The notes under the pieces were generated by a model. That model did no database searches. It was not told where the DNA came from and saw only the letters and a program-made list of their open reading frames with translations. A stretch of DNA of 32,000 bases from Bellilinea caldifistulae. GTDB taxonomy: Bacteria > Chloroflexota > Anaerolineae > Anaerolineales > Anaerolineaceae. Every line of letters starts with the position of its first letter. Position 1 is the first letter of the stretch. Positions 2,699 through 6,624 of the stretch are shown here, piece by piece. The translations under genes were made by a program, and so were the position numbers. The stretch covers positions 210,001-242,000 of the forward strand of contig NZ_LGHJ01000011.1 of the NCBI RefSeq assembly GCF_001306055.1, read 5' to 3'.

Positions 2699-3909
2699 AA
2701 TCCCCGCATTCACCCGGCCTGACCCCGCAGGTAGTCCTGTTCACGCTGATTCGCAGCGTGCTGAACACCAGTTACCGGATGGTGTACCCCTACCTGTCGC
2801 TCTTTCAAAGCGGGCTGGGAGTTGGGCTGCCGGCCGTCTCGCTGGTGCTGACGCTCCGCTCGCTGATCACCTTTGCCGGGCCGTTTCTCTCCCCGATTGC
2901 CGACCGCTACGGGCGGCGGGTGAGCATGTTGCTGGGGATGGGGCTGTTCACGTTCGGCGCGCTGATGGTCGTCTGGCTGCCGGATTTCCGCGGCTTCGCC
3001 GTCAGCCTGCCGCTGATGGCCCTGGCTTACATCATTTTCCTGCCGGCCATGCAGGCTTACCTCGGCGACCGGGTGGCGTACGAACGCCGCGGGCGGGTGA
3101 TGGGCATCACCGAACTGTCGTGGTCGCTGTCGTTCATCTTCGGCGTGCCGCTGGTGGGGGCGCTGCTGGGGCGCAGCGGGGCGTGGCAGTCGCCTTTCCT
3201 GCCGCTGGCGCTGCTGGGCGGGGTGAGCCTGCTGGCGTTGTGGCGCATTCTGCCGGCCGACCGGCCGGCCGGTCAGACCGGGCCGGCCGCCGCTGCCTCC
3301 CTGCCGCTCGGCCGCCTGGTGCAGTCGCCCGCGGCGCGCGCCGGCCTGCTCACCTTTTTGCTGTTGACGGCCGCCAACGAGACGGTCAATCTGGTGTTCG
3401 GTTTGTGGCTGGAGCAGCGTTTCAACTTTCAACTGGCGGCGCTGGGAGCCGCCGCGGTGCTCATCGGGCTTTCCGAGATGGGCGGCGAGGGGCTTTCGGC
3501 CTGGCTGGTGGACCGCCTGGGCAAGGTCTGGTCGGTGCGCGCCGGACTGCTGGTCAACCTGCTGGCAGCCGGGGTGATGTACGGGCTGGGCGGCCAGGCC
3601 TGGGGCGCCCTGACCGGTCTGTTTTTGTTTTACCTGTCGTTTGAGTTTTCGCTGGTTTCGCTGCTGCCGTTGATGAGCGAAACCCTGCCCGAACTGCGCG
3701 CCACGGTGATGGCCGGTACGCTGGCGATGGGTGCGCTCGGCCGGGCGGTGGGGACTCAGCTGGCTCCGCTGTTGTTCAACGGGGTGGGCATGGGGGGAAA
3801 TTTGCTGGCGGCGCTGGCGATGAACCTGCTGGCGTTCTGGCTGGTGCAGCGGGTGCAGGTGCGGGTGGCGGTTCGCCCGCCCGGTAAAACGGCTGGGGAC
3901 TACGCCTGA
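2695..3909 (+). CDS. MFS transporter
   Basis: About 12 hydrophobic segments, with the MFS loop motif PIADRYGRR between TM2 and TM3. The ATG at 2695 overlaps the upstream TGA (ATGA), which suggests translational coupling. The track start at 2665 is also possible. Confidence 0.8.
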   Translation: MKSPHSPGLTPQVVLFTLIRSVLNTSYRMVYPYLSLFQSGLGVGLPAVSLVLTLRSLITFAGPFLSPIADRYGRRVSMLLGMGLFTFGALMVVWLPDFRGFAVSLPLMALAYIIFLPAMQAYLGDRVAYERRGRVMGITELSWSLSFIFGVPLVGALLGRSGAWQSPFLPLALLGGVSLLALWRILPADRPAGQTGPAAAASLPLGRLVQSPAARAGLLTFLLLTAANETVNLVFGLWLEQRFNFQLAALGAAAVLIGLSEMGGEGLSAWLVDRLGKVWSVRAGLLVNLLAAGVMYGLGGQAWGALTGLFLFYLSFEFSLVSLLPLMSETLPELRATVMAGTLAMGALGRAVGTQLAPLLFNGVGMGGNLLAALAMNLLAFWLVQRVQVRVAVRPPGKTAGDYA

Positions 3910-3916
3910 CCCGTCC

Positions 3917-4126
3917 CGGATGCGGACTGCCGTCCCCTTCGATGACCGGTCGGCGGCGCGCTGCGCCGAAATCTACACTGAATTGACCGCTGGGATGCTG
4001 GACGCGGCAATGCGCACCCAAGCAGCGGTGAGCGCGTAGGTGCGCCCGTAAACGCCGTTCGGCGCGGGTGAGGTTTTGACGCAGGCTTTTTGCTCGCTGG
4101 CGGGTAACCGGCGGGGTGCGGGGCAC
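3917..4126 (-). pseudogene. Truncated DUF559 (Vsr-like endonuclease domain) remnant
   Basis: The minus-frame translation RAKSLRQNLTRAERRLRAHLRAHRCLGAHCRVQHPSGQFSVDFGAARRRPVIEGDGSPH follows the DUF559 pattern (LRxNxTxAExxLWxxLR...FRRQxPIGxYIVDF...xIELDGxxH). The similarity ends where the MFS gene 3' end begins, so the C-terminal half is missing. Confidence 0.45.
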
Positions 4127-4255
4127 ATGGCAACGGCAGGTTTGGGCAAAAGTTTTGATTGTGGGAAGGGGGTTGTGCTTTGTGCGGTGTGGTTGAAGGC
4201 GTCCCCCTCGCGCCTGCGGTCGCTTGCGGCGGGCAGGGGTAATTGGTTCGGGCTG

Positions 4256-4311
4256 CCTCCTCCCCCTAATAAAAAATCGCTTCTGCGATTTTGGGGAGGC
4301 GCAGGAGGGGG
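4256..4311. repeat. Dispersed hairpin repeat module (CCCC-A-rich-ATCGC loop GCGAT-T-rich-GGGGAGG-GCAGG), copy 1; possible weak minus-strand terminator
   Basis: The stem AAAATCGC (4273-4280) / GCGATTTT (4285-4292) has a 4-nt loop and is flanked by CCCC/GGGG. The module is closely similar to 27372-27420. Read on the minus strand, the 3' arm runs into TTTTTTATTA. Confidence 0.6.
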
Positions 4312-4315
4312 TGGG

Positions 4316-4351
4316 GTATTAATGCCCTTACGGGCATTTGTTGATTCGGAC
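4316..4351 (-). CRISPR. Solitary CRISPR repeat copy, detached from the array by 528 nt
   Basis: GTATTAATGCCCTTACGGGCATTTGTTGATTCGGAC matches the array consensus at 35 of 36 positions (C to A at position 3) and lies in the same orientation. Confidence 0.85.
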
Positions 4352-4354
4352 GCG

Positions 4355-4768
4355 TCACGTCTCTGACAGCCAGCGGCGCAGGCGATGAAGACCTCGTATA
4401 AGTCGGTCGATGAAATCTCCTTCATTTTCAGTACCTCCTTCTTCTGGTGTATTTTGTTCTTGCTCTTCTGTTTCCTTTTCCGCAGGAACTTCACTTTGTT
4501 TTGGATAGATTCGATCCAGCAAATTGTTGTATAAGCACGCCAGGGAGTGATATTCGGTGAGAAGGCGTGAATATTGCGGCCACATCATTCTTGCATCAAT
4601 GGTTGGCGAGCCCCTGCCAGACCACTGCATCGCAAAAATGAACTGGTAGTTGGACAATTGTTCCCTAAGCTCAATGAGCCTGTTCTCATATTTGTGGAGA
4701 AACAAGCCGTACTGTTTGAAGTAATAGTCCATTATTTCCTGGGAGATGTAGGGGTTGTTTTCCGTCAT
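4355..4768 (-). CDS. Hypothetical protein (137 aa) embedded between CRISPR repeats; no family recognised
   Basis: Intact ORF with GGAGG 7 nt upstream of the ATG (minus-strand AAATGGAGGCCGCAAATG). The TGA lies 3 nt from the solitary repeat. GC is about 40-45% on three 60-nt lines I counted, well below the flanks. The predicted protein has a helical N-terminal part, an acidic E/T-rich linker and a basic amphipathic tail. Confidence 0.7.
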   Translation of the reverse strand: MTENNPYISQEIMDYYFKQYGLFLHKYENRLIELREQLSNYQFIFAMQWSGRGSPTIDARMMWPQYSRLLTEYHSLACLYNNLLDRIYPKQSEVPAEKETEEQEQNTPEEGGTENEGDFIDRLIRGLHRLRRWLSET

Positions 4769-4779
4769 TTGCGGCCTCC

Positions 4780-4807
4780 ATTTCCGATCGGAAATCGGGC
4801 GCCCGAT
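4780..4807. promoter_or_regulatory. Two overlapping perfect palindromes immediately upstream of the embedded ORF RBS
   Basis: ATTTCCGATCGGAAAT (4780-4795, 16 nt) and ATCGGGCGCCCGAT (4794-4807, 14 nt) are both self-complementary. They sit directly 5' of the GGAGG of the 4768 ORF. Confidence 0.4.
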
Positions 4808-4879
4808 TGTTCGCGCGCCAGTTTATCCACGATGATATTGTTGCCGGTGTGGGCTATGGTGTAGCAAAACTCGACCTCG

Positions 4880-5663
4880 GTCTTAATGCCCTTATGGGCA
4901 TTTGTTGATTCGGACTGAGCAAAATTGTTTTACCCCCTGACCTAACAATCAATGCGTCTTAATGCCCTTACGGGCATTTGTTGATTCGGACTTATGGCTG
5001 AATACGAAATACTTGATGATTTTGCAAAGGTCTTAATGCCCTTACGGGCATTTGTTGATTCGGACGGAGTCAGCAGATTTATTGCTCCACAAAACACTGG
5101 TAGGTCTTAATGCCCTTACGGGCATTTGTTGATTCGGACTCAGGGTAAGACACACGGAGACAGAACCAGGATACGTCTTAATGCCCTTACGGGCATTTGT
5201 TGATTCGGACCAAACTGGGTTATCGCTTTTTTTGCGTTAATCGCATTCGTCAGTCTTAATGCCCTTACGGGTATTTGTTTATTCGGACCTTGTTAAGATA
5301 CCTCTCCTCCCCCCGTTGAAAGGCTGTCCGTCTTAATGCCCTTACGGGCATTTGTTGATTCGGACGATATTCGGAGAAGAACGTTTCAACAGACTATATC
5401 AGGGTCTTAATGCCCTTATGGGCATTTGTTGATTCGGACAATCGAAACAACCTTCTTGTTATCCGTACTACTGTTATTCCGTCTTAATGCCCTTACGGGC
5501 ATTTGTTGATTCGGACTCCGGAATCGGCCGCAGCACAGTCGGTCGGGGGCGCTCCGTCTTAATGCCCTTACGGGCATTTGTTGATTCGGACTGTTCAATG
5601 AAGTCTGTGATTGGAGCAATCCGCGAGGTCTTAATGCCCTTACGGGCATTTGTTGATTCGGAC
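4880..5663 (-). CRISPR. CRISPR array, 11 repeats of 36 nt and 10 spacers; no cas genes in the window
   Basis: The repeat (plus-strand reading) is GTCTTAATGCCCTTACGGGCATTTGTTGATTCGGAC. Copies start at 4880, 4956, 5030, 5104, 5175, 5253, 5330, 5404, 5481, 5556 and 5628. Spacers are unique and measure 40, 38, 38, 35, 42, 41, 38, 41, 39 and 36 nt. Variant repeats: 4880 and 5404 carry a loop C to T change, and 5253 carries two substitutions. The strand call is inferred from three points. The reverse complement GTCCGAATCAACAAATGCCCGTAAGGGCATTAAGAC places the hairpin near the 3' end and ends in ATTAAGAC, which resembles an ATTGAAAC-type handle. An AT-rich leader with a promoter lies at 5664-5760. 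A variant repeat sits at the far end. Confidence 0.97.
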
Positions 5664-5724
5664 TGCTGACTCGCTCCTGCTTTTTTCGGAATTTTTCCGA
5701 TACTTATCCGAACCGTATGCCACC

Positions 5725-5753
5725 ATACTATCATTTTCTGCGCTAAAAATCAA
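5725..5753 (-). promoter_or_regulatory. Candidate sigma70-type promoter in the CRISPR leader, reading into the array
   Basis: The minus strand reads TTGATT (5753-5748), then 17 nt, then TAGTAT (5730-5725), with TG one base upstream of the -10 (extended -10 type). It lies about 60 nt upstream of the first repeat at 5663. Confidence 0.4.
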
Positions 5754-5803
5754 CCATTTCTGGCAAAAAATTTCCCTTTCCGTACAATTTTAATCTTTGT
5801 TGC

Positions 5804-5854
5804 GTACCCCCCTCCTGAAATTGGTATTTTTTCGGTGGAATGGAGAGGGGGTAC
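5804..5854 (-). terminator. GC-rich hairpin downstream of the GT2 gene (candidate operon terminator/insulator before the CRISPR leader)
   Basis: GTACCCCCCTCC (5804-5815) pairs with GGAGAGGGGGTAC (5842-5854), giving 12 bp with one bulged A and a 26-nt loop. It lies 27 nt past the stop at 5881. There is no canonical U-tract after the stem, so the terminator call is weak. Confidence 0.3.
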
Positions 5855-5880
5855 ACATAATCTATGCGCAATTACTCCCC

Positions 5881-6624
5881 TCACGGGCTGGCCAGCGGAC
5901 GCTTCTGGCGCAGGTCACGGTACAGCCACAGCAGCAGCCACGTCCGGTAGGCGGCTTCCACCTGAATCCGCAAGGACATCTTCGACTGCCCCCAGCGCCG
6001 GTCGGCAAAGTGAATCGGAATCTCGCGGGCGCGGAAGCCGAGCAGATGGGCGGCGTAAATCATCTCCACCTGAAAGATGTAGCCGTTCGAACGCACCCGT
6101 TCGAGCGGCATGCGTTTGAGCGTCTCGCGCCGCCACAGGCGAAAACCGCCGGTCACATCCCGCACCGGAATGCCCAGAATGGTGCGGGCGTAAAAATTGC
6201 CGAACGCCGAAAGCCCCCTGCGCCAGAACGGCCAGCGTTCGTCCAGGCTGCCGCCCGGCACATACCGCGAACCCAGCGCCACATCGCACTCTTCCAGCGC
6301 CTGCGCCAGTTCCACAATCTTCTCCGGCGGGTGCGAAAAGTCGGCGTCCATCTGGCAAACCGCCTCGGCTCCCAGGTTGAGGGCGCGCTCAAAGCCCTGG
6401 ATGTAGGCGCTGCCCAGCCCCAGTTTGCCGGAGCGGTGCAGCACGGACATGCGTCCGCCGGAGCGGGCGGCCAGCCGCTCGGCAATCTCGCCGCTGCCGT
6501 CCGGGCTGTTGTCGTCCACAATCAGCAGCGAAAGTTCGGGCATCGGCAGGCTGAACAGGCGCTCGGTCAACACGGGCAGGTTTTCGGCTTCATTATAGGT
6601 GGGGATGACAACGGTAATTTTCAT
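5881..6624 (-). CDS. GT2 family polyprenol/dolichol-phosphate mannosyltransferase-like glycosyltransferase
   Basis: MKITVVIPTYNEAENL..., LLIVDDNSPDGS, QMDADFSHPP and GSRYVPGG are typical of Ppm1/Dpm1-like GT2 enzymes. The ATG at 6624 overlaps the upstream stop (ATGA). The track start at 6708 would overlap the upstream gene. Confidence 0.85.
   Translation of the reverse strand: MKITVVIPTYNEAENLPVLTERLFSLPMPELSLLIVDDNSPDGSGEIAERLAARSGGRMSVLHRSGKLGLGSAYIQGFERALNLGAEAVCQMDADFSHPPEKIVELAQALEECDVALGSRYVPGGSLDERWPFWRRGLSAFGNFYARTILGIPVRDVTGGFRLWRRETLKRMPLERVRSNGYIFQVEMIYAAHLLGFRAREIPIHFADRRWGQSKMSLRIQVEAAYRTWLLLWLYRDLRQKRPLASP

What the first reader, a model, noticed from the sequence alone, without database searches (positions are those of the whole stretch)
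4316..4915. Intact protein-coding gene occupying a spacer position of a CRISPR array (528-nt 'spacer' bracketed by repeats)
Seen directly: a 12th repeat copy (35/36 identical, same orientation) lies at 4316-4351, 528 nt from repeat 1 (4880-4915). All ten normal spacers are 35-42 nt. The interval holds one intact minus-strand ORF (4768 to 4355, 137 aa) with GGAGG 7 nt before its ATG and its TGA only 3 nt from the solitary repeat. The ORF is on the strand from which I infer the array is transcribed. Read-through pre-crRNA would therefore carry this mRNA bracketed by two repeat hairpins, followed by a hairpin plus T-run at 4273-4292. The ORF DNA is about 40-45% GC on three lines I counted, against more than 60% in flanking genes. 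The protein has a helical core, an acidic E/T-rich linker and the basic tail FIDRLIRGLHRLRRWLSET, and it matches no family I recognise. Inference: either a cargo gene was captured inside an array (anti-defence, regulator or toxin-like), or Cas6-type processing is used to release or control an mRNA.
Basis: partly seen in the sequence, partly recalled or inferred. Interest (0 to 1): 0.8.

Follow-up and report, generated by a model that had tools for sequence, protein, structure and literature searches.

The report
Protein gene inside CRISPR spacer slot
A small, conserved protein gene sits where the oldest spacer of a CRISPR array should be, and its only known relatives occupy the same kind of slot in other arrays, so some arrays appear to carry and probably express genes as well as spacers.

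Summary
The window is Bellilinea caldifistulae (Anaerolineae). It holds 12 copies of a 36-nt repeat, 10 spacers of 35-42 nt, and one 528-nt unit at the trailer end. That unit carries an intact 137-aa ORF on the strand from which the array is read.

The ORF is a real gene. It has three relatives among about 15 billion proteins. Every one lies between two direct CRISPR repeats and points the same way as the array. One is flanked by an unrelated repeat next to cas1-cas2-cas4, with only 12 nt between repeat and start codon.

The slot varies. Related genomes hold other small genes there, or none. About a quarter of 46 surveyed arrays of this repeat family carry such units.

The host has Cas6 in a type III-A locus elsewhere on the chromosome.

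Best reading (0.5): this is foreign-derived cargo, transcribed only as part of the pre-crRNA, bracketed by two Cas6 sites, and probably released as a separate mRNA. Neither processing nor protein function was tested. I found no family or fold match and no published precedent.

Main rival: a tolerated relic of mobile-element DNA with no CRISPR-linked role.

The parts
5664..5880 (-). CRISPR leader. It is AT-rich and carries a promoter-like TTGATT (5753-5748), a 17-nt spacer, then TAGTAT (5730-5725), plus a conserved inverted repeat GTACCCCC...GGGGGGTAC.
   Evidence: It aligns with the leader that follows cas6 in the same genome (L027) and with the KatS3mg045 leader. GC is 0.42-0.44. I read the promoter by eye. 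The scan tool did not flag it because it matches only 8 of 12 consensus positions.
4880..5663 (-). Regular part of the array: 11 repeats of 36 nt and 10 spacers of 35-42 nt.
   Evidence: B. caldifistulae-like metagenome contigs share only the last normal spacer and the ORF unit, so the leader-side spacers have turned over since those strains diverged. The repeat RNA forms a 7-bp hairpin with a GUAA loop, -11.3 kcal/mol, z = -3.7.
4765..4878 (-). Truncated 3' end of an upstream gene, RNase H-like. It is cut off by the repeat, and its TGA overlaps the ORF's ATG (ATGA).
   Evidence: The frame is open from the repeat boundary: 37 codons here and 58 codons in KatS3mg045. Pfam RNase_H scores E = 0.003 over profile positions 98-139 of 141, below the curated cut-off. 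tblastn hits to phage RNase HI C-termini are weak, E 0.5-4. The stretch is 94-98% identical between the two species.
4780..4795 (.). Perfect palindrome ATTTCCGATCGGAAAT, immediately upstream of the ribosome-binding site.
   Evidence: Among 153 fetched loci, the motif ATTTCCGnnCGGAAAT occurs only upstream of this gene family (Bellilinea loci and L015). It lies in a different reading frame in L015, so protein coding does not explain its conservation. Its role is unknown.
4775..4779 (-). Shine-Dalgarno sequence GGAGG, 6 nt before the ATG.
   Evidence: Read directly from the sequence. GGAGGCC(G/A)CAAATGAC is shared with the distant homologue in L005.
4355..4768 (-). Cargo gene of 137 aa (P0001, locus tag BECAL_00102). 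It has an N-terminal helical hairpin, an acidic disordered linker (residues 89-117, net charge -8) and a basic C-terminal helix.
   Evidence: ORF. Homologues. dN/dS. AlphaFold2 model: pLDDT 71.7, helices at 10-20, 24-49, 59-87 and 116-136. Foldseek found no significant match in PDB or BFVD. pI is 5.0.
4316..4351 (-). Terminal repeat, 35/36 identical. The hairpin and the inferred Cas6 site are intact. The single change lies in the 3' 8-nt handle.
   Evidence: The KatS3mg045 copy is likewise changed only in the handle. The terminal repeats in L007, L015 and L026 also keep the hairpin and lose the handle.
4271..4292 (-). Terminator-like hairpin plus T-run, 23 nt after the terminal repeat.
   Evidence: Read from the sequence. 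The stem is conserved in three genomes while the loop differs, and it is nested in a larger C-rich/G-rich stem.

Best explanation
The 528-nt unit is a gene cassette of foreign, mobile-element-like origin. It occupies the oldest (trailer-end) spacer slot of an orphan CRISPR array that belongs to the type III-A/Cas6 system of Bellilinea caldifistulae.

Proposed mechanism:
1. The cassette shows no recognisable promoter of its own, so it is transcribed from the leader promoter as the last unit of the pre-crRNA. Transcription stops at the hairpin and T-run after the terminal repeat.
2. Cas6 cuts at the base of the hairpin in each flanking repeat.
3. Cutting releases an RNA of about 560 nt. It starts with the 8-nt tag AUUAAGAC, carries an intact ribosome-binding site and the 137-codon ORF, and ends in a repeat hairpin.
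4. The RNA is translated into a small cytoplasmic protein.

The protein has a helical-hairpin N-terminal module that is exchanged between lineages, and an almost invariant acidic linker and basic C-terminal helix. That pattern fits a protein whose N-terminus meets a fast-evolving partner, such as a phage or another mobile element.

Type III arrays could tolerate such long units because mature crRNA length is set from the 5' tag by trimming the 3' end. That point is established knowledge of type III systems applied by inference.

Shown here: the anatomy, the conservation, the exclusive link with repeats, the variable content of the slot, and the presence of Cas6 and Csm genes.

Inferred: co-transcription, Cas6 cleavage, translation, and any role of the protein.
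For: 1. The gene is real.
- Bcal versus KatS3mg045 proteins are 64% identical with no indels.
- Codons 1-88 give dS about 1.9, dN 0.43, ratio 0.22.
- A homologue with 43% identity and E = 7.5e-21 exists.

2. The family is found only between repeats. Two searches over 5.8 billion protein clusters and one over 1.84 billion representatives returned only P0001, P0002 and P0003.
- P0002 sits at the syntenic locus, with the terminal repeat again 3 nt after the stop.
- P0003 (L005) lies after cas1-cas2-cas4 and a leader. It sits between two copies of an unrelated 37-nt repeat, with 12 nt from repeat to ATG.
- A fourth, C-terminally truncated relative (hhalign E = 5e-5, probability 67%) fills the terminal slot of another array, in L015. 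Its stop codon overlaps the first base of the repeat.
- L015 shares the family-specific palindrome.

3. The slot varies at two syntenic array loci.
- L007 holds an unrelated 156-aa membrane-type ORF.
- L006 holds two 46-aa ORFs.
- L025 and L027 hold none.

4. The pattern is general. Among 46 arrays of this repeat family with visible ends, at least 12 carry over-long repeat-bounded units with sense-strand ORFs, most with a visible ribosome-binding site.

5. The cargo depends on array transcription.
- The distance from repeat to the first start codon is 12-45 nt in L005, L006, L007, L026 and L056.
- No promoter-like site lies on the sense strand of 4100-5950.

6. The machinery exists.
- Cas6 (P0025) sits in a cas10-csm2-5-cas6 locus on the same chromosome, with a homologous leader and repeat.
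- Thermanaerothrix has cas6-cas1 next to an array of the same repeat family.

7. The origin looks foreign.
- ORF GC is about 0.45, against 0.62-0.74 in the host flanks.
- 1799 unique spacers average 0.49 GC.
- A truncated upstream gene abuts the repeat.

8. The gene is a mosaic.
- Seven flanking genes give dS of 0.32-0.60.
- Against that, the N-terminal part gives about 1.9 and the C-terminal part 0.15.
Against: - There is no RNA or protein evidence. Co-transcription, Cas6 cleavage and translation are all inferred.
- The low dN/dS of the N-terminal part could reflect selection in a donor element before import, not selection in the array.
- The C-terminal comparison rests on only about 9 substitutions.
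- The L015 copy is truncated. In L006 and L025 the terminal repeat has lost its hairpin, so bracketing by two Cas6 sites is not universal.
- Larger repeat-bounded inserts (a phage fragment, transposases, a HEPN-MNT pair) lie antisense to the array. This shows that arrays of this family also collect DNA passively.
- The protein has no recognisable family or fold.
- The family has only four members, two of them from one lineage.
Confidence: 0.5

Rival explanations
1. Passive relic. A fragment of phage or plasmid DNA became trapped between two repeats. Possible routes are aberrant Cas1-Cas2 integration of a long fragment, recombination between a spacer and its matching protospacer, or recombination with a repeat carried by a mobile element. 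The fragment persists because a type III array loses nothing by it. The ORF is intact but has no CRISPR-linked role.
For: - The cassette boundaries ignore gene boundaries. An upstream gene is truncated at the repeat here. The ORF is truncated at the repeat in L015.
- KatS3mg045 also holds a 3376-nt repeat-bounded fragment carrying four antisense phage head-type genes.
- Transposases and a HEPN-MNT pair sit inside other arrays of this family.
- The GC content of the cargo matches that of the spacers.
Against: - The family is seen only between repeats, in three independent contexts and with two unrelated repeat families.
- The frame, the ribosome-binding site and the full length are kept in three lineages. 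Neutral sites in the flanking genes have diverged by 0.3-0.6 substitutions per site over the same period.
- Small cargo ORFs lie mostly on the sense strand, most with a ribosome-binding site close to the upstream repeat.
- No homologue was found in IMG/VR or GenBank phages.
Confidence: 0.25
2. Addiction or abortive-infection cargo. The cassette encodes a toxin-like or growth-arrest factor. Its expression is tied to array transcription and Cas6 processing, so that it stabilises the array or acts as a second line of defence. This would resemble the toxin-antitoxin modules found beside or within CRISPR-Cas loci.
For: - Other cargo in the same slot includes small membrane proteins (L007, L026, L145, L095, L110), an MqsA-like zinc-finger ORF (Pfam E = 1e-5, below cut-off) and a HEPN-MNT pair identified by eye.
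- Small membrane toxins of type I toxin-antitoxin systems co-localise with CRISPR arrays in C. difficile (PMC5961336).
Against: - P0001 has no hydrophobic segment and no PADLOC or toxin-family match.
- No partner gene or antisense element was identified.
- No spacer matches the cassette beyond 13 nt.
Confidence: 0.12
3. Leftover of a second array. The ORF is an ordinary neighbouring gene that once lay between two arrays, and 4316-4351 is the last surviving repeat of the second array.
For: - Arrays of this family do occur more than once per genome and per contig.
- Solitary and partial repeats exist at array ends.
Against: - No homologue lies at any non-CRISPR locus.
- The same tight packing recurs in other lineages and with other repeats. 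The stop codon lies 0-9 nt from the repeat in six cases.
- The sequence after the terminal repeat is the conserved trailer with its terminator, not another spacer.
- The upstream gene is cut exactly at the repeat.
Confidence: 0.05
4. The RNA is the functional product. The long unit acts as a crRNA-like or decoy RNA, for example a guide made from its first 40 nt or so, or a regulator working through the palindrome. The reading frame is incidental.
For: - The non-coding 5' remnant, the terminal repeat and the trailer are 92-100% identical between species, more conserved than the neighbouring genes.
- A family-specific palindrome exists.
Against: - The first 40 nt after the repeat differ between the two Bellilinea species, because KatS3mg045 has 64 extra nt there.
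- The 5' region shows no unusual structure (z = -1.1), and Rfam gives no match.
- Protein-level conservation at saturated dS argues for coding constraint.
Confidence: 0.08

Closest known systems
Ordinary CRISPR array processed by Cas6 in a type III-A (Csm) system
   Same: - A leader, 36-nt hairpin repeats, spacers of 35-42 nt, and a terminal repeat that is degenerate at its 3' end.
- Cas6 and cas10-csm2-5 are present in the same genome.
   Different: One unit is 528 nt long and holds a complete, conserved protein gene with its own ribosome-binding site. A processed unit would be an mRNA, not a guide.
Type I toxin-antitoxin modules next to CRISPR arrays in Clostridioides difficile (Maikova et al. 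2018, PMC5961336)
   Same: Small accessory genes are physically and perhaps regulatorily tied to arrays. Several other cargo ORFs found here are small membrane proteins.
   Different: - Those modules lie beside arrays. They are not between two repeats and are not on the pre-crRNA.
- They have antisense RNA antitoxins.
- P0001 is a soluble 137-aa helical protein, and no partner was detected.
crRNA-like mini-arrays and CreTA-type RNA modules inside CRISPR-Cas loci (abstract of bioRxiv 10.1101/2024.10.29.618823; CreTA details recalled from memory)
   Same: A repeat, a non-standard insert and a second repeat form a unit kept within a CRISPR-Cas locus. The flanking repeats match the local system.
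   Different: - The inserts in those units are short guide-like sequences that act as RNA by partial pairing with promoters.
- Here the insert is a translated-looking gene of 414 nt.
- No spacer complementary to the cassette was found.
Solitary repeat units and RNA anti-CRISPRs on phages and plasmids (Camara-Wilpert et al. 2023, PMC10651486)
   Same: CRISPR repeats occur outside their normal repeat-spacer context, next to mobile-element genes. This is a possible source of repeat-flanked DNA through recombination.
   Different: - Those repeats sit on the mobile element and act as decoys for Cas proteins.
- This unit is chromosomal, part of an array and conserved at a syntenic site.
- No viral copy of this repeat was found in IMG/VR.
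Insertion sequences that interrupt CRISPR arrays
   Same: Foreign DNA interrupts an array. Real examples occur in this repeat family, in L036 and L112.
   Different: The cassette has no transposase gene, and I saw no terminal inverted repeats. Its boundaries are whole CRISPR repeats.
Synthetic Cas6/Csy4 insulators that flank genes in engineered operons (recalled from memory; not checked here)
   Same: Cas6-family hairpins are placed on both sides of an ORF so that the transcript is cut into a defined mRNA.
   Different: That is an engineered device. This would be a natural counterpart, and cleavage has not been shown.

Membership tests
CRISPR array (Cas6-processed, type III-A associated) | Three or more near-identical direct repeats separated by unique spacers of similar length | tested here: met
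   12 repeats and 10 spacers of 35-42 nt; 0 matches expected by chance.
CRISPR array (Cas6-processed, type III-A associated) | A leader on one side, a degenerate terminal repeat on the other, and cas genes in the genome | tested here: met
   The leader is homologous to the one that follows cas6. The terminal repeat is changed in its 3' handle. cas10-csm2-5-cas6 lies on the same chromosome about 0.5 Mb away around the circle, assuming the 3.70-Mb scaffold is the circular chromosome.
CRISPR array (Cas6-processed, type III-A associated) | Every unit is a short spacer that yields a guide RNA | tested here: not met
   The trailer-end unit is 528 nt and encodes a conserved 137-aa protein.
CRISPR array (Cas6-processed, type III-A associated) | Repeats are cleaved by Cas6 in the transcript | not testable with these tools
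   The repeat folds into the expected hairpin and Cas6 is encoded. No RNA data were available.
Insertion sequence or transposon inserted in an array | A transposase gene, terminal inverted repeats and a short target-site duplication | tested here: not met
   The unit holds only the 137-aa ORF and a 37-codon gene remnant. It is flanked by full 36-nt CRISPR repeats. No Pfam match. I made no dedicated search for terminal inverted repeats.
CreTA / crRNA-like regulatory mini-array | A short pseudo-spacer with partial complementarity to a promoter or toxin gene, acting as RNA | tested here: not met
   The insert is 528 nt and protein-coding. A comparison of 1799 unique spacers with all long repeat-bounded units, including this 528-nt unit, gave only 13-nt chance-level matches.
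Type I toxin-antitoxin next to an array (C. difficile type) | A small hydrophobic membrane toxin with an overlapping antisense RNA antitoxin | tested here: not met
   P0001 has no hydrophobic segment. The model shows a soluble helical protein. The scan found no antisense promoter-like site within the unit.
Viral solitary repeat unit / RNA anti-CRISPR | A lone repeat carried on a phage or plasmid genome | tested here: not met
   The locus is chromosomal and syntenic across Bellilinea species. IMG/VR has no copy of the repeat.
Anti-CRISPR or other known defence/anti-defence protein family | Sequence or fold match to a described family | tested here: not met
   No significant match in Pfam, PHROGs (best E = 0.19), PADLOC, NCBIfam, PDB sequences, or Foldseek against PDB and BFVD. 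Activity cannot be tested here.
RNase HI (upstream gene remnant only) | Match to the RNase_H profile above the curated threshold | tested here: inconclusive
   E = 0.003 and 18.2 bits against a cut-off of 25.8, aligned to the last 42 profile positions. Several weak hits to phage RNase HI. This is what a C-terminal fragment would give, but it is not proof.

The most novel reading that the evidence does not exclude
Some CRISPR arrays, here those of a type III-A/Cas6 system in Anaerolineae, act as platforms that capture and express genes. Whole genes from mobile elements become installed as over-long spacers. They are transcribed from the leader and cut out by Cas6 as separate mRNAs, and they are kept because their products help the host, for example by excluding phage. 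The 137-aa family would be the first protein family that lives only in spacer slots. Its hypervariable N-terminal module would be exchanged among arrays or with phages.
Probability: 0.3. Interest if true: 0.85.

Novelty: new variant of a known kind. Interest (0 to 1): 0.72.

Why it matters
CRISPR arrays are regarded as stores of short guide sequences. A conserved protein gene that sits in a spacer slot, is flanked by whichever repeat the local system uses, and is found nowhere else suggests arrays can also carry and express genes. It would also give Cas6 a natural role in maturing an mRNA.

If confirmed, it would add a new class of CRISPR-linked genes that annotation pipelines are likely to miss or split. 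It would raise the question of how kilobase-scale DNA becomes bounded by intact repeats. It would provide a natural version of the Cas6-insulated operons built in synthetic biology.

B. caldifistulae is a cultured, sequenced organism, so all of this can be tested directly.

Tried and rejected
- Family and fold assignment of the protein. Pfam, PHROGs, PADLOC, NCBIfam, a PDB sequence profile, and Foldseek against PDB and BFVD gave nothing significant.
- More family members. These searches added nothing beyond the four loci: a profile search of 5.8 billion clusters; back-translated scans of metagenome contigs and viral contigs; tblastn against GenBank phages; and an HMM search of all six-frame ORFs in 153 loci.
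- A phage source for the RNase H-ORF operon. None was found.
- A viral copy of the repeat. The 23-nt core has 0 hits in IMG/VR. Three hits to the 18-nt hairpin are unrelated terminator-like hairpins.
- A spacer that targets the cassette. KatS3mg045 spacer 12 shares 21 exact nt, antisense, with the start region of the L015 ORF. The same purine-rich 21-mer occurs in unrelated 30%-GC phages, so I treat this as weak and do not use it.
- A known RNA family in the unit, leader or trailer. None.
- A special structure in the processed 5' region. None, z = -1.1.
- An internal promoter. None was flagged on the sense strand.
- A published precedent. Eight full-text searches and five papers gave no description of intact genes in spacer slots. 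The library does not include most subscription-journal papers.
- Diversity-generating retroelement mutagenesis as the cause of the variable N-terminus. I rejected this by eye: the substitutions are of all types, not only at adenines.
Full report

Yes. The window matches Bellilinea caldifistulae, scaffold DF967971.1.
- It holds 12 copies of one 36-nt repeat. On the minus strand the repeat reads GTCCGAATCAACAAATGCCCGTAAGGGCATTAAGAC. Shuffled sequence gives no matches.
- Eleven copies form a regular array at 4880-5663, with ten spacers of 35-42 nt.
- The twelfth copy (4316-4351) is 35/36 identical and lies 528 nt beyond the array.
- That interval holds one intact minus-strand ORF (4355-4768, 137 aa). 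GGAGG lies 6 nt before its ATG, and its TGA lies 3 nt before the terminal repeat.
- A hairpin with a T-run follows at 4271-4292. Its stem is conserved in three genomes while the loop differs.
- GC is 0.43-0.50 across the ORF and array, against 0.61-0.74 in the flanks.

**2. Which strand is transcribed, and by which system?**

The evidence points to the minus strand.
- The AT-rich stretch at 5664-5880 is a leader. It aligns with the leader that follows cas6 in the same genome.
- That second locus (L027) is a type III-A operon: cas10/csm1, a NACHT gene, csm2-csm5, two accessory genes, cas6, a leader and a five-repeat array of the same repeat.
- In Thermanaerothrix daxensis, cas6-cas1 precede an array of the same repeat family.
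- The repeat RNA forms a 7-bp hairpin with a GUAA loop, followed by a short tail (-11.3 kcal/mol, z = -3.7).
- By analogy with other Cas6 repeats, which I recall from memory, cleavage would leave the 8-nt tag AUUAAGAC.

The ORF therefore lies on the transcribed strand, in the oldest slot of the array. Two metagenome contigs with an identical ORF share only the last normal spacer and the ORF unit with the reference strain. The array has therefore kept acquiring spacers, and the ORF unit predates all but one of the normal spacers.

**3. Is the ORF a gene?**

Yes.
- A Bellilinea metagenome-assembled genome (KatS3mg045, L001) has a 137-aa homologue, 64% identical with no indels. It sits at the same site between the glycosyltransferase and MFS genes, and its terminal repeat again lies 3 nt after the stop.
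- Divergence is strikingly uneven. Codons 1-88 give dS about 1.9, dN 0.43 and a ratio of 0.22. Codons 89-137 give dS 0.15. Seven flanking genes give dS 0.32-0.60.
- The 111 nt before the ATG, the terminal repeat and about 400 nt of trailer are 92-100% identical, more conserved than the neighbouring genes.
- I conclude that the N-terminal module was replaced by recombination with a much more divergent allele that had near-identical flanks. Where such alleles reside is unknown.
- An AlphaFold2 model (pLDDT 71.7) shows a helical hairpin (residues 24-49 and 59-87), a disordered acidic linker and a basic C-terminal helix.
- No family or fold match was found.

**4. What lies upstream of the ORF?**

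- The 111 nt between the repeat and the ATG include a gene remnant (4765-4878). One frame is open from the repeat boundary and ends in a TGA that overlaps the ATG (ATGA).
- KatS3mg045 keeps 58 codons of this frame and B. caldifistulae keeps 37.
- The fragment matches the C-terminal end of the Pfam RNase_H profile at E = 0.003, below the curated cut-off. It also gives weak hits to phage RNase HI.
- The unit therefore looks like a piece of a two-gene operon cut off at the repeat.
- A perfect palindrome, ATTTCCGATCGGAAAT (4780-4795), sits just before the ribosome-binding site.

**5. The link to CRISPR repeats is specific to this family.**

A search of 1.84 billion representative proteins found one further relative, P0003 (140 aa, E = 7.5e-21).
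- Its contig (L005) reads: partial cas1, cas2, cas4, an AT-rich leader, a 37-nt repeat (GTTGCACCCCCTTCGATCCGCTTGTGGATACTGAAAC), 12 nt containing GGAGG, the ORF, 63 nt, then a second and slightly degenerate copy of the repeat.
- This repeat is unrelated to the Bellilinea repeat.
- The ORF is the only unit of that array.

A fourth, remote and C-terminally truncated relative fills the terminal slot of another array (L015, Chloroflexota MAG175).
- hhalign gives E = 5e-5, probability 67%, over 79 columns.
- Its stop codon overlaps the first base of the terminal repeat.
- It shares the palindrome motif, which is absent from the other 148 loci and lies in a different reading frame there.
- L015 is syntenic with the cas-adjacent array of B. 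caldifistulae, not with the window's array. The family therefore occupies different arrays in different lineages.

No member was found at a non-CRISPR locus.

**6. The slot is variable and the pattern is general.**

At the window's syntenic locus:
- Bellilinea sp. H69_726 (L007) has an unrelated 156-aa membrane-type ORF between the last repeat and a partial terminal repeat.
- MAG175 (L025) has only 121 nt and a truncated repeat.

At the cas-adjacent locus:
- An uncultured Bellilinea (L006) has two 46-aa ORFs that end exactly at a partial repeat.
- B. caldifistulae itself (L027) has none.

I scanned GTDB genomes and JGI metagenomes with the repeat core and surveyed the arrays.
- Of 46 arrays with at least 700 nt visible beyond the regular part, at least 12 carry an over-long repeat-bounded unit with sense-strand ORFs. 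Most have a visible ribosome-binding site.
- Cargo includes small membrane proteins, a DUF4352 lipoprotein (E = 1.4e-20) and an MqsA-like zinc-finger ORF (E = 1e-5, below cut-off).
- The first start codon lies 12-45 nt after the upstream repeat in five cases, which leaves no room for a promoter.
- Larger inserts lie antisense to the array: a 3.4-kb fragment with phage head-type genes, two transposases, and a HEPN-MNT pair identified by eye.
- Cargo GC (0.37-0.55) resembles the mean GC of 1799 unique spacers (0.49).

This sample is not random, so the proportions are rough.

**7. How it most likely works.**

My preferred reading (confidence 0.5) is as follows.
- The cassette is mobile-element DNA that became installed between two repeats.
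- It is transcribed only as the last unit of the pre-crRNA.
- It is bracketed by two Cas6 sites and is probably released as a discrete, translatable mRNA.
- Type III arrays should tolerate long units, because mature crRNA length is set from the 5' tag. This is established knowledge applied by inference.
- The invariant C-terminal part and the swapped N-terminal module suggest a protein that engages a fast-evolving partner.

None of the RNA or protein steps was tested.

The route by which 0.3-3.4 kb of DNA becomes bounded by intact repeats is open. It could be aberrant Cas1-Cas2 integration, spacer-protospacer recombination, or recombination with a repeat carried on a mobile element.

**8. Rival explanations.**

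- Passive relic (0.25). This fits the arbitrary boundaries and the antisense inserts. It does not explain why the family is exclusive to repeat-flanked slots or why the ORFs stay intact.
- Addiction or abortive-infection module (0.12). This fits other cargo types and the C. difficile precedent (PMC5961336). P0001 does not look like a toxin.
- Leftover of a second array (0.05). Recurrence with other repeats and the absence of any non-CRISPR homologue argue against it.
- RNA-only function (0.08). The differing first 40 nt and the protein-level conservation argue against it.

**9. Novelty.**

Eight full-text searches found no report of intact genes in spacer slots or of natural Cas6-bracketed mRNAs. 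The library omits many subscription journals.

The nearest known things are toxin-antitoxin modules beside arrays, crRNA-like mini-arrays, viral solitary repeats and insertion sequences in arrays. Each fails at least one defining feature here.

I class the finding as a new variant of a known kind.

Noticed in passing
L027:3088-4788 (B. caldifistulae DF967971.1, type III-A locus): A 566-aa NACHT NTPase gene sits inside the csm operon, between cas10/csm1 (plus an 86-aa ORF) and csm2. A 421-aa MJ1674-like gene and a 134-aa gene precede cas6.
   Followed up: no
L001:5525-8900 (Bellilinea sp. KatS3mg045): A 3376-nt insert bounded by repeats lies near the leader end of the array. It carries four antisense genes, two with phage head-type Pfam hits (Phage_Mu_F; HK97-gp10_like, weak). 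A degenerate extra repeat and a spacer of about 31 nt lie between the leader and the repeat at 5489.
   Followed up: partly
L007:2881-3457; L006:269-577; L026:3628-4113: The terminal slot of related arrays holds unrelated small genes: a 156-aa membrane-type ORF; a 46-aa CxxC...CxxC ORF plus a 46-aa helical ORF; and a 74-aa ORF plus a 64-aa ORF with one predicted transmembrane segment. All lie on the sense strand. In L006 the stop abuts the terminal repeat, and in L026 it lies about 5 nt before it.
   Followed up: partly
L095:3553-4953 and L110:681-1089 (= L124), coordinates on the array-sense strand (reverse complement of the stored locus): Two arrays carry internal long units. Each encodes a 65-aa protein with an N-terminal hydrophobic helix and a very acidic, tyrosine-rich tail, preceded by AGGAGG. 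The two may be related, but tblastn did not link them.
   Followed up: no
L031, L045, L086, L087, L089, L110, L142 (array ends): These arrays end in, or contain, tandem composite units of about 91-215 nt. Each unit is the first 29 nt of the repeat followed by CTGGATTGATGATTGATGATTG... and further shared sequence. Spacers of 55 nt in L086 and L087 match these units.
   Followed up: no
L036:2842-4603; L112 (about 1780 nt after repeat end at array-sense position 1281); L041:118-1311: Transposase genes of 484 aa and 444 aa, and a HEPN-MNT toxin-antitoxin pair, lie between repeats of arrays of this family. All are antisense to the array. I identified them by eye and did not scan them against family libraries.
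   Followed up: no
window:3909-4316 and 3776-4084 (minus strand): The trailer after the terminal repeat is 92-100% identical between two species whose flanking genes have dS of 0.32-0.60. It overlaps a small DUF559-type ORF.
   Followed up: partly
window:~5795-5860 (leader): An inverted repeat, GTACCCCC(T/C)C...GGAGGGGGGTAC, is conserved in both B. caldifistulae leaders and in KatS3mg045. Its role is unknown.
   Followed up: no
L027:11874-12422; L015:2647-3206; L006:713-1091: Low-GC 88-aa and 58-aa (membrane-type) genes follow the cas-adjacent array on the same strand in three genomes. No repeat was detected after them in L027; L015 and L006 were not checked for one.
   Followed up: partly
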